Positions 7,566-7,723 of a DNA stretch of 8,834 nt are shown piece after piece. Location: the IMG/VR virus record IMGVR_UViG_3300014515_000027; one strand, given 5' to 3'. The notes beneath the pieces were generated by a model. It was given only the letters and a program-made list of their open reading frames with translations. It was not told the DNA's origin and made no database searches. The position numbers and the translations under genes are program-made. This stretch comes from a virus (lineage: Duplodnaviria; Heunggongvirae; Uroviricota; Caudoviricetes). The stretch's first letter is position 1, and each line of letters begins with the position of its first letter.

Positions 7566-7723
7566 CTATCTGTCTCAGGCATGAACACTGAAAGGCAGAT
7601 AGAGAAAAGCCCCAGTTAACATTTCGCGTCCTGCAAGACGCTTAACATTAATCTGAGGCCCAATCTATGTCTCACAAATGTAGGTTAGCCTCTTACGTGC
7701 CGAAAGGCAAGGGGAAGCAGGCT

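What the first reader, a model, noticed from the sequence alone, without database searches (positions are those of the whole stretch)
7600..7690. Candidate Sok-like antisense RNA opposite the hok leader
On the minus strand, a -35-like TTGCCT and a -10-like TAACCT (complement of 7682-7687) with about 17-nt spacing would drive a short transcript antisense to the region just upstream of the hok start codon. That is where the Sok antitoxin RNA is encoded in hok/sok systems. The promoter match is weak and I could not find a clean terminator.
Basis: inference. Interest (0 to 1): 0.4.

Follow-up and report, generated by a model that had tools for sequence, protein, structure and literature searches.

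The report
Sok antitoxin RNA gene, confirmed
The flagged stretch is a genuine but already well-known Sok-type antisense RNA gene, the antitoxin of a prophage hok/sok toxin-antitoxin module; the only unusual thing is that the toxin gene beside it is broken by a 34-base deletion.

Summary
As a bare motif this is chance level (5 sites in the window, 4.3 expected), and the simple promoter scan rejects it. Homology makes the case. The 30-nt promoter block is identical to that of sokW in Sakai prophage 5, where mutating this same hexamer abolished antitoxin activity and the RNA was seen on Northern blots. Across 28 diverse hok loci, TTG of the -35 and A2/T6 of the -10 never vary, although those -10 bases are often unpaired in the hok-leader hairpin whose neighbouring bases covary. 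The predicted ~71-nt RNA (7675 to about 7605) has a 9-nt single-stranded 5' tail over the mok start codon. A long bulged hairpin (-29.6 kcal/mol, z -4.9) covers the mok Shine-Dalgarno, followed by GGGGCUUUUCUCU. Rfam's sok model scores 120.5 bits, but on the hok-sense strand: it models the hok leader, not Sok. The hok ORF has a 34-nt frameshifting deletion found nowhere else searched. Verdict: already known, low interest.

The parts
7705..7710 (-). sok promoter -35 hexamer TTGCCT
   Evidence: Read directly from the sequence. It lies inside the exact 30-nt match to hokW probe YO-597. TTG is invariant in 28/28 hok loci. On the hok strand it falls in the conserved unpaired loop GAAAGGCAAGG of the Rfam leader model.
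7682..7687 (-). sok promoter -10 hexamer TAACCT, 17 nt from the -35
   Evidence: It is identical to the Sp5 sokW hexamer that was mutated in the promoter-less construct. A2 and T6 are invariant in 28/28 loci, although their plus-strand complements are unpaired in 12/28 and 7/28 leader hairpins.
7605..7675 (-). Predicted Sok RNA, about 71 nt. The 5' end at G7675 is inferred from the 7-nt distance to the -10 and from homology. The 3' end in the U-run is inferred.
   Evidence: Fold. A length of 71 nt from G7675 ends at 7605 inside the U-run, which agrees with the 71-nt complementarity reported for sokW. Neither end has been mapped for this allele.
7667..7675 (-). Single-stranded 5' tail of Sok (GUGAGACAU), complementary to the mok AUG and the first mok codons; the presumed target-recognition region
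   Evidence: Unpaired in both the MFE and centroid structures. It is the most variable part of Sok across the family. It differs from sokW at 4 of 9 positions.
7607..7661 (-). Sok stem-loop, which is the terminator hairpin and is antisense to the mok Shine-Dalgarno
   Evidence: -29.6 kcal/mol, z -4.86. Across 24 homologues 96.4% of cells are paired, with compensatory changes at 3 pairs, against 35-52% for slid controls. There are 47 G.U cells on this strand against 2 on the mirror strand.
7602..7609 (-). U-rich tail UUUUCUCU following GGGGC
   Evidence: GGGGCTTT is invariant or nearly so in the 24-sequence alignment.
7655..7669 (+). Sok target: the mok Shine-Dalgarno GAGG (7655-7658) and the mok AUG (7667-7669)
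   Evidence: Sequence and ORF list. In the full-length mRNA fold both are buried in a hairpin closed by GAGGC/GCCUC.
7667..7882 (+). mok reading frame, here in frame with hok and running into the frameshifted tail (71 codons)
   Evidence: The corresponding ORF is annotated as MokW-like in phage records.
7724..7882 (+). hok ORF, disrupted by a 34-nt deletion between 7797 and 7798 that shifts the frame after residue 25
   Evidence: Alignment to the otherwise 100% identical locus of strain AR_0013. Pfam HOK_GEF matches only profile positions 1-20 of 42 at 19.9 bits (cut-off 22), against 80.6 bits for the intact protein.
7519..7547 (+). hok promoter TTGGCG-17-TAGAAT (context)
   Evidence: The only promoter-like site the scan reports in 7400-8050. 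The Rfam leader model starts 7 nt downstream at 7554.
7554..7729 (+). hok mRNA leader, which is what Rfam RF01794 'sok' actually matches. It includes tac (7554-7565) and ucb (AAGCCCC, 7607-7613).
   Evidence: 120.5 bits, E 9e-28, full model 1-157.
7895..7940 (+). fbi element (7895-7907), which pairs with tac, and the hok intrinsic terminator (stem 7914-7931 plus T-run)
   Evidence: tac-fbi pairing is present in the MFE of the full-length mRNA, z -7.5. The terminator is reported by the scan.

Best explanation
The stretch encodes a Sok-type cis-antisense RNA, the antitoxin of a hok/sok type I toxin-antitoxin module. The module is carried by a lambdoid E. coli prophage, between queH and the DUF968/rusA/Q genes.

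A constitutive sigma-70 promoter on the minus strand (TTGCCT-17-TAACCT, 7710-7682) starts transcription near G7675. The RNA ends about 71 nt later in the U-run after a long hairpin. Its single-stranded 5' tail covers the mok start codon and the 5' arm of its stem covers the mok Shine-Dalgarno.

By pairing with the 3'-processed, translatable form of the hok mRNA, Sok blocks mok translation. It therefore also blocks the translationally coupled hok, and the duplex becomes a substrate for RNase III.

Shown here: the sequence elements, their identity to sokW, their family-wide conservation, and the fold. Inferred from homologues: that the promoter fires, the exact RNA ends, RNase III and Hfq involvement, and translational coupling.

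In this particular window the cognate hok is frameshifted. Sok therefore most likely guards a dead toxin and is vestigial, or acts only on other hok copies with a matching leader.
For: - **Rfam.** RF01794 hits at 120.5 bits over the complete model.
- **Experimental homologue.** The hokW mRNA probe matches 30/30 across the promoter, and the -35, spacer and -10 are identical to Sp5 hokW-sokW. In that system, mutating this -10 abolished protection, sokW in trans restored it, and sokW was detected by strand-specific Northern blot (PMC8621323).
- **Promoter conservation.** In 28 distinct hok loci from Escherichia, Shigella, Citrobacter, Klebsiella, Raoultella, Kluyvera, Pseudocitrobacter, Pantoea, Erwinia, Photorhabdus and phages, TTG, A2 and T6 are invariant and the spacer is 17 nt (24 loci) or 18 nt (4 loci).
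- **Control for hok-strand constraints.** The invariant -10 bases are frequently unpaired in the plus-strand hairpin, while hexamer positions 3-5 covary with their partners. Plus-strand pairing therefore does not explain the invariance.
- **RNA shape.** The Sok fold is a 5' tail, a hairpin and a U tail, z -4.86.
- **Hairpin conservation.** 96.4% of cells are paired with compensatory changes, and the G.U asymmetry favours the minus strand.
- **Other family features.** tac/fbi pairing and a sequestered mok SD are present.
- **Founding member.** The elements align with the R1-type TTGCGC-17-TATCCT block.
- **Mechanism.** As summarised in PMC9841398.
Against: - No transcript data exist for this allele.
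- The promoter matches consensus at only 7/12 positions, is not listed by the scan, and its skeleton occurs at chance frequency.
- The Rfam hit is on the hok-sense strand, so it is not direct evidence for the antisense RNA.
- Much of the conservation is shared with hok-mRNA elements. GTAAGAGGC in the spacer pairs with the mok SD, and GGGGCUU is the complement of ucb.
- 22 of the 47 G.U cells come from one column pair whose bases are also individually constrained on the hok strand. Another 17 come from an insertion shared by six related sequences.
- The toxin is disrupted, so antitoxin function in this genome is doubtful.
Confidence: 0.9

Rival explanations
1. The hexamers are a by-product of constraints on the hok mRNA (leader hairpins, the hok SD, mok translation). 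On this view no discrete antisense RNA is made from this allele.
For: The motif is at chance frequency and fails the promoter scan. The spacer block GTAAGAGGC is as conserved as the hexamers, and its complement pairs with the mok SD in the mRNA fold. The Rfam hit is on the plus strand only.
Against: The identical promoter block drives a detectable, functional sokW in Sp5. A2 and T6 stay invariant even where their plus-strand complements are unpaired, while neighbouring hexamer positions covary. The -35 complement lies in an unpaired but conserved loop of the leader model.
Confidence: 0.04
2. Sok is expressed but is an orphan. Its own toxin is dead, so the locus is a decaying module. Any remaining role would be in trans, silencing hok mRNAs with the same leader on other prophages in the cell (anti-addiction or cross-immunity).
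For: The 34-nt deletion frameshifts hok after residue 25, and the product falls below the Pfam cut-off. In R1 Hok, premature stops, C-terminal extensions or tags and C-terminal missense changes abolish toxicity. E. coli genomes that have this locus carry a median of 2 and up to 9 related copies.
Against: No co-resident copies can be examined from an 8.8-kb window. The recognition tail of Sok is the most variable part of the RNA. Chromosomal Sok RNAs did not silence R1 hok, so trans action needs a near-identical leader. The deletion could be an assembly error.
Confidence: 0.5
3. The 34-nt deletion is a sequencing or assembly artefact, or otherwise not biological, and the module is a fully functional hok/sok system like hokW-sokW.
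For: The junction is absent from 5,426 complete E. coli genomes. Neither frameshifted product is on record in the public gene index. Everything else in the locus is 100% identical to hundreds of genomes.
Against: The window also differs from the nearest examined genome by about 8 substitutions over 8.8 kb, so it is simply another strain. Deletions in hok are a common route to loss of toxicity. Another copy, in Shigella L007, is also frameshifted.
Confidence: 0.3

Closest known systems
sokW of the hokW-sokW locus, Sakai prophage 5 / VT2-Sakai (Takada et al. 2021, PMC8621323)
   Same: Both are lambdoid-prophage hok/sok modules. The -35, 17-nt spacer and -10 are identical, with a 30/30 match to probe YO-597. 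They share the same hairpin, including the clade-specific apical extension, the same GGGGCUUUUCUCU tail, the same in-frame mok, and the same tac and fbi. sokW was shown to be an antitoxin, and its -10 was validated by mutation.
   Different: 8 of the 71 predicted Sok positions differ, 4 of them in the 9-nt recognition tail. The neighbours differ: queH and DUF968/rusA/Q here, against orf75 and a YgiW-like gene in Sp5. The hok 3' end and terminator differ. hok is frameshifted here.
Sok RNA of plasmid R1 hok/sok (parB), the founding member
   Same: The architecture is the same. The promoter sits at the same aligned position (TTGCGC-17-TATCCT in an R1-type IncF copy). Sok has a 5' tail over the mok AUG, a stem-loop and a GGGGCU-U-rich tail. 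The mRNA has tac/fbi, and mok-coupled translation and RNase III decay apply.
   Different: The Hok proteins are about 44% identical. mok is out of frame with hok in R1 but in frame here (sequence). The Sok body sequence has diverged, and the hairpin here carries an extra insertion of about 20 nt at its tip. R1 is a plasmid with a role in post-segregational killing, whereas this is a prophage.
Rfam RF01794 'sok antitoxin (CssrC)'
   Same: The window matches the full model at 120.5 bits, twice the gathering score.
   Different: The model is 157 positions long. It begins at the hok mRNA 5' end and ends at the hok AUG, and it matches the hok-sense strand. It therefore describes the hok leader, which contains the Sok target, and not the roughly 70-nt antisense RNA on the other strand.
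hokD (relF) of E. coli K-12 Qin prophage, the name RefSeq gives this toxin
   Same: RefSeq annotates the intact version of this ORF as 'type I toxin-antitoxin system toxin HokD'.
   Different: From my own recollection of Pedersen and Gerdes 1999 (not checked here), K-12 hokD lacks the upstream mok/sok regulatory region. The present locus has the complete leader, sok promoter, tac and fbi.

Membership tests
hok/sok type I toxin-antitoxin: Sok antisense RNA | Encoded on the strand opposite the hok mRNA leader, overlapping the mok translation-initiation region | tested here: met
   The promoter at 7710-7682(-) directs transcription across the mok AUG (7667) and SD (7655-7658).
hok/sok type I toxin-antitoxin: Sok antisense RNA | Own sigma-70 promoter at the conserved position inside the mok frame, just upstream of the hok AUG on the opposite strand | tested here: met
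   It is identical to the mutationally validated sokW promoter. TTG, A2 and T6 are invariant in 28/28 loci with 17-18 nt spacing. It aligns with the R1-type block. Promoter activity itself was not measured.
hok/sok type I toxin-antitoxin: Sok antisense RNA | Small RNA (about 64-71 nt) with a single-stranded 5' recognition tail, one stem-loop and a U-rich 3' end | tested here: met
   The fold gives a 9-nt tail, a hairpin of -29.6 kcal/mol (z -4.86) and a UUUUCUCU tail. The hairpin is conserved, with compensatory changes.
hok/sok type I toxin-antitoxin: Sok antisense RNA | Covariance-model match to Rfam RF01794 at or above the gathering score | tested here: met
   120.5 bits against 59. The match is on the hok-sense strand, so it identifies the locus rather than the antisense RNA.
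hok/sok type I toxin-antitoxin: Sok antisense RNA | The antisense transcript is actually produced, is unstable, and neutralises Hok | not testable with these tools
   Known only for homologues (sokW by Northern blot and growth assays; R1 Sok).
hok/sok module as a whole | Intact Hok/Gef-family toxin ORF (Pfam PF01848) | tested here: not met
   A 34-nt deletion shifts the frame after residue 25. The product scores 19.9 bits over profile positions 1-20 of 42, below the cut-off of 22. The intact homologue scores 80.6 bits.
hok/sok module as a whole | mok reading frame overlapping hok, with its SD and AUG inside the Sok target | tested here: met
   The ORF starts at 7667 and runs through the hok AUG at 7724, in frame. 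SD GAGG lies at 7655-7658.
hok/sok module as a whole | Long-range tac (5') to fbi (3') pairing that locks the full-length mRNA, with the mok SD sequestered | tested here: met
   In the MFE of 7554-7936, bases 1-12 pair with 7895-7907 and the mok SD and AUG sit in a closed hairpin, z -7.48. The intact relative folds the same way.
hok/sok module as a whole | RNase III cleavage of the Sok-hok duplex and 3' processing of the hok mRNA | not testable with these tools
   Literature only.

The most novel reading that the evidence does not exclude
An intact, presumably expressed Sok antitoxin is retained next to a hok gene killed by a private 34-nt deletion. Sok might then persist as a trans-acting anti-addiction RNA against identical hok leaders on co-resident or incoming prophages. 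Alternatively, the frameshifted product (the Hok transmembrane helix fused to a new 27-residue basic tail) could be a neofunctionalised small membrane protein still controlled by Sok.
Probability: 0.07. Interest if true: 0.4.

Novelty: already known. Interest (0 to 1): 0.12.

Why it matters
This has little importance for discovery. It is a textbook type I antitoxin whose closest relative, sokW, has already been characterised.

There are three practical points:
- Rfam's 'sok' family matches the hok-sense leader, so the strand and coordinates of an RF01794 hit should not be copied into annotation as the Sok gene.
- The one RefSeq record examined (strain AR_0013) names the toxin HokD but annotates no antisense RNA at this locus, and it calls a doubtful minus-strand ORF over the hok terminator.
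- This copy shows a toxin-first decay route, with hok deleted and sok intact. That is the expected safe order of loss for an addiction module.

Tried and rejected
- **Promoter/terminator scan.** It lists only the hok promoter and hok terminator. The sok promoter fails its 4/6 + 4/6 rule, and the bulged Sok hairpin fails its ungapped-stem rule.
- **Motif skeleton count.** Chance level, so I did not use it as evidence.
- **Permissive Rfam scan of both strands.** No family matches the minus strand over 7600-7690. Rfam has no model of Sok in its own sense.
- **RNAalifold on 24 Sok sequences.** It recovered only the 9 basal pairs, because the window's clade has an apical insertion of about 20 nt and the two hairpin types differ in register around a bulge. 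I replaced it with a hand-specified structure.
- **G.U asymmetry.** I first read this as strong proof of minus-strand selection, then downgraded it. 22 of the cells come from one pair whose bases are also fixed by the mok SD and ucb on the hok strand. 17 more come from six related sequences.
- **tac-anchored scan of genome contigs.** Most returned loci were chance hits in unrelated phyla. I kept only loci with a Hok-like ORF.
- **Le Rhun et al. supplements for the R1 Sok-promoter mutations.** Not held, so the R1 promoter assignment rests on alignment and my recollection.
- **Search for the deletion.** The 86-nt junction query was uninformative because of ties. The 40-nt junction query and the exact-product look-ups all found nothing.
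- **Sub-threshold isrK hit.** Rejected as a membership claim: 27 bits against a gathering score of 50.

Full report
**Context.** The window is part of a lambdoid E. coli prophage. It is 99.9% identical over 8.8 kb to a prophage of strain AR_0013. The gene order there is dicB, DicF (Rfam 77 bits at 1009-1060 on the minus strand), regulators, replication genes, DUF1627, DUF977, queH, then a gene RefSeq calls hokD, followed by DUF968, rusA and Q. The finding lies in the hok locus.

**Observation.** The minus strand reads TTGCCT (7710-7705), a 17-nt spacer, TAACCT (7687-7682), then ACATTTG-TGAGACAT.

Taken alone they are unimpressive. The match is 7/12 to consensus, the sigma-70 scan does not list it, and the skeleton TTG-N20-TA-N3-T occurs 5 times in the window against 4.3 expected. 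Two of those five sites are the hok and sok promoters.

**Covariance model.** Rfam RF01794 'sok' matches at 120.5 bits against a gathering score of 59, over the complete model. The match is on the plus strand, 7554-7729. The model's consensus starts with the hok mRNA 5' end (GGGUGCUUGAGG, the tac element), which lies 7 nt downstream of the hok promoter TTGGCG-17-TAGAAT. It ends at the hok AUG.

At 157 positions it is more than twice the length of a Sok RNA. It is therefore a model of the hok leader, which contains the Sok target. A permissive scan finds no family on the minus strand there. The hit proves that this is a hok/sok leader. It does not by itself prove the antisense gene.

**Experimental homologue.** Takada et al. 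2021 (PMC8621323) characterised hokW-sokW of Sakai prophage 5.
- Their hokW mRNA probe YO-597 matches the window 30/30 at 7683-7712 on the minus strand, spanning the -35, the spacer and 5 of the 6 bases of the -10.
- A pairwise alignment with VT2-Sakai shows the whole promoter block identical.
- Comparing their mutagenic primers YO-421/422 with the wild-type sequence shows that the promoter-less construct changes plus-strand TAGGTTAG to CCGGCTCG. That turns the TAACCT hexamer into GAGCCG.
- This mutant lost protection against HokW, and sokW supplied in trans partly restored it.
- sokW was detected with a plus-sense probe, so it is a minus-strand RNA. It is described as having 71 nt of complementarity to the hokW 5' UTR.
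- Antitoxin activity depended partly on RNase III and Hfq.

**Family-wide test.** I anchored a genome-collection scan on the tac element, which lies about 100 nt from the sok promoter and is independent of it. I kept only loci with a Hok-like ORF and added phage copies. This gave 28 distinct loci from several Hok subfamilies (HokD/W-, HokC-, HokE-, HokB- and R1-like) in at least ten genera.

At the aligned positions:
- The -35 is TTGNNN in 28/28 loci.
- The -10 has A at position 2 and T at position 6 in 28/28 loci.
- The spacer is 17 nt in 24 loci and 18 nt in 4.
- The less critical hexamer positions vary.

The -10 lies in a stem of the hok leader, so I checked the plus-strand partners. The complement of A2 is unpaired in 12/28 local hairpins and the complement of T6 in 7/28. 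Positions 3-5, in contrast, change together with their partners. Plus-strand pairing therefore does not explain why exactly the two key -10 bases never change. A promoter requirement does. An IncF plasmid copy encoding the classic R1 Hok has TTGCGC-17-TATCCT at the same aligned place.

**The RNA.** Starting at G7675 (7 nt after the -10, an inferred position), the transcript folds into three parts:
- A 9-nt free 5' tail, GUGAGACAU, complementary to the mok AUG at 7667-7669.
- A long bulged hairpin at 7661-7607, whose 5' arm is complementary to the mok SD GAGG at 7655-7658.
- The tail GGGGC-UUUUCUCU.

The fold energy is -29.6 kcal/mol with z -4.86. A 71-nt RNA would end at 7605, inside the U-run. 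The scan misses it because the stem is long and bulged.

In an alignment of 24 homologous Sok regions, a hand-specified structure is 96.4% paired, against 35-52% when the partners are slid. It has compensatory changes at three pairs, for example A-U to G-C in 7 sequences.

Read as Sok, the hairpin contains 47 G.U cells. Read as its mirror image on the hok strand, it contains 2, and pairing falls from 96.4% to 79.9%. I treat this as supportive only. 22 of those cells come from one pair whose bases are also fixed on the hok strand by the mok SD and the ucb box. 17 more come from an apical insertion shared by six related sequences.

**Rest of the module.** The full-length hok mRNA (7554-7936) folds with its first 12 bases (tac) paired to 7895-7907 (fbi). 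The mok SD and AUG are closed in a hairpin, and z is -7.5. mok (7667) is in frame with hok (7724). These are the defining features of hok mRNAs as summarised by Le Rhun et al. 2022 (PMC9841398).

**Mechanism (inferred from homologues).** The full-length mRNA is locked and inert. After 3' trimming it refolds and exposes the mok ribosome-binding site. Sok pairs there through its 5' tail and prevents translation of mok, and hence of hok. The duplex is then cut by RNase III.

**The unexpected part.** The hok ORF lacks 34 nt between 7797 and 7798, relative to otherwise 100% identical copies in hundreds of E. coli genomes.
- The frame shifts after residue 25. The conserved RKDLCEV...TAYEPEE half is replaced by 27 unrelated residues.
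- The product matches only profile positions 1-20 of 42 of Pfam HOK_GEF, at 19.9 bits (cut-off 22). The intact protein scores 80.6 bits.
- In R1 Hok, premature stops, stop-codon loss, a C-terminal tag and C-terminal missense changes all abolish toxicity. So this allele is very probably non-toxic, though that is an inference.
- The junction is absent from 5,426 complete E. coli genomes, and neither product is in the public gene index.
- The leader, the sok gene and the mRNA fold are untouched.
- I cannot distinguish a private mutation from an assembly error. The window differs from the closest examined genome by about 8 further substitutions, so it is simply another strain.

**Verdict.** This is a Sok gene, a close allele of sokW: 63 of 71 predicted positions are identical, with 4 of the 8 differences in the 9-nt recognition tail. 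It belongs to a family known since the 1980s and is covered by Rfam, so it is already known and of low interest. The points worth recording are the strand caveat for RF01794 and the disrupted toxin beside an intact antitoxin.

Noticed in passing
window 7797/7798 (hok ORF 7724-7882): A 34-nt deletion relative to otherwise identical E. coli loci frameshifts Hok after residue 25. The junction is absent from 5,426 complete E. coli genomes, and the product is absent from the public gene index.
   Followed up: yes
window 7554-7729 (+): Rfam RF01794 'sok antitoxin' matches the hok-sense strand and spans the whole hok leader (157 positions). An RF01794 hit therefore gives neither the strand nor the extent of the real Sok RNA.
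   Followed up: yes
window 1009-1060 (-): A full-length DicF sRNA (RF00039, 77 bits against a gathering score of 48), next to a dicB-type region in the annotated relative.
   Followed up: no
window 7854-7935 (+): A sub-threshold match of the hok 3' UTR (a GC hairpin, fbi and the terminator) to Rfam isrK, a Salmonella prophage sRNA: 27.2 bits against a gathering score of 50. It may reflect shared prophage ancestry or merely two hairpins plus a terminator.
   Followed up: partly
window 6800-7486 (+): An epoxyqueuosine reductase QueH gene sits directly upstream of the hok promoter in this prophage. It is a tRNA-modification gene carried as phage cargo.
   Followed up: no
window 7887-8066 (-); L001 8422-8601: RefSeq annotates a 59-aa 'hypothetical protein' on the minus strand across the hok terminator and fbi, yet annotates no antisense RNA at the locus. 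The ORF is probably spurious.
   Followed up: no
window 7607-7613 (+) / 7613-7607 (-): The ucb box of the hok mRNA (AAGCCCC) is the exact complement of the 3' arm and first U residues of the Sok terminator. The same bases therefore serve both RNAs, and conservation there cannot be assigned to one strand.
   Followed up: partly
L007 1128-1286 (Shigella flexneri); L040 6062 and 6728 (Klebsiella sp.): The Shigella hokC-type copy is also frameshifted in its transmembrane region. The Klebsiella contig carries two tandem hokE-like loci 666 nt apart, whose Sok 5' tails differ.
   Followed up: no
hit H34 (phage collection): A record named Actinobacillus phage vB_Apl-pPE4 carries a hok locus 90.6% identical to the window's. 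That is an unexpected host label for an enterobacterial prophage module.
   Followed up: no
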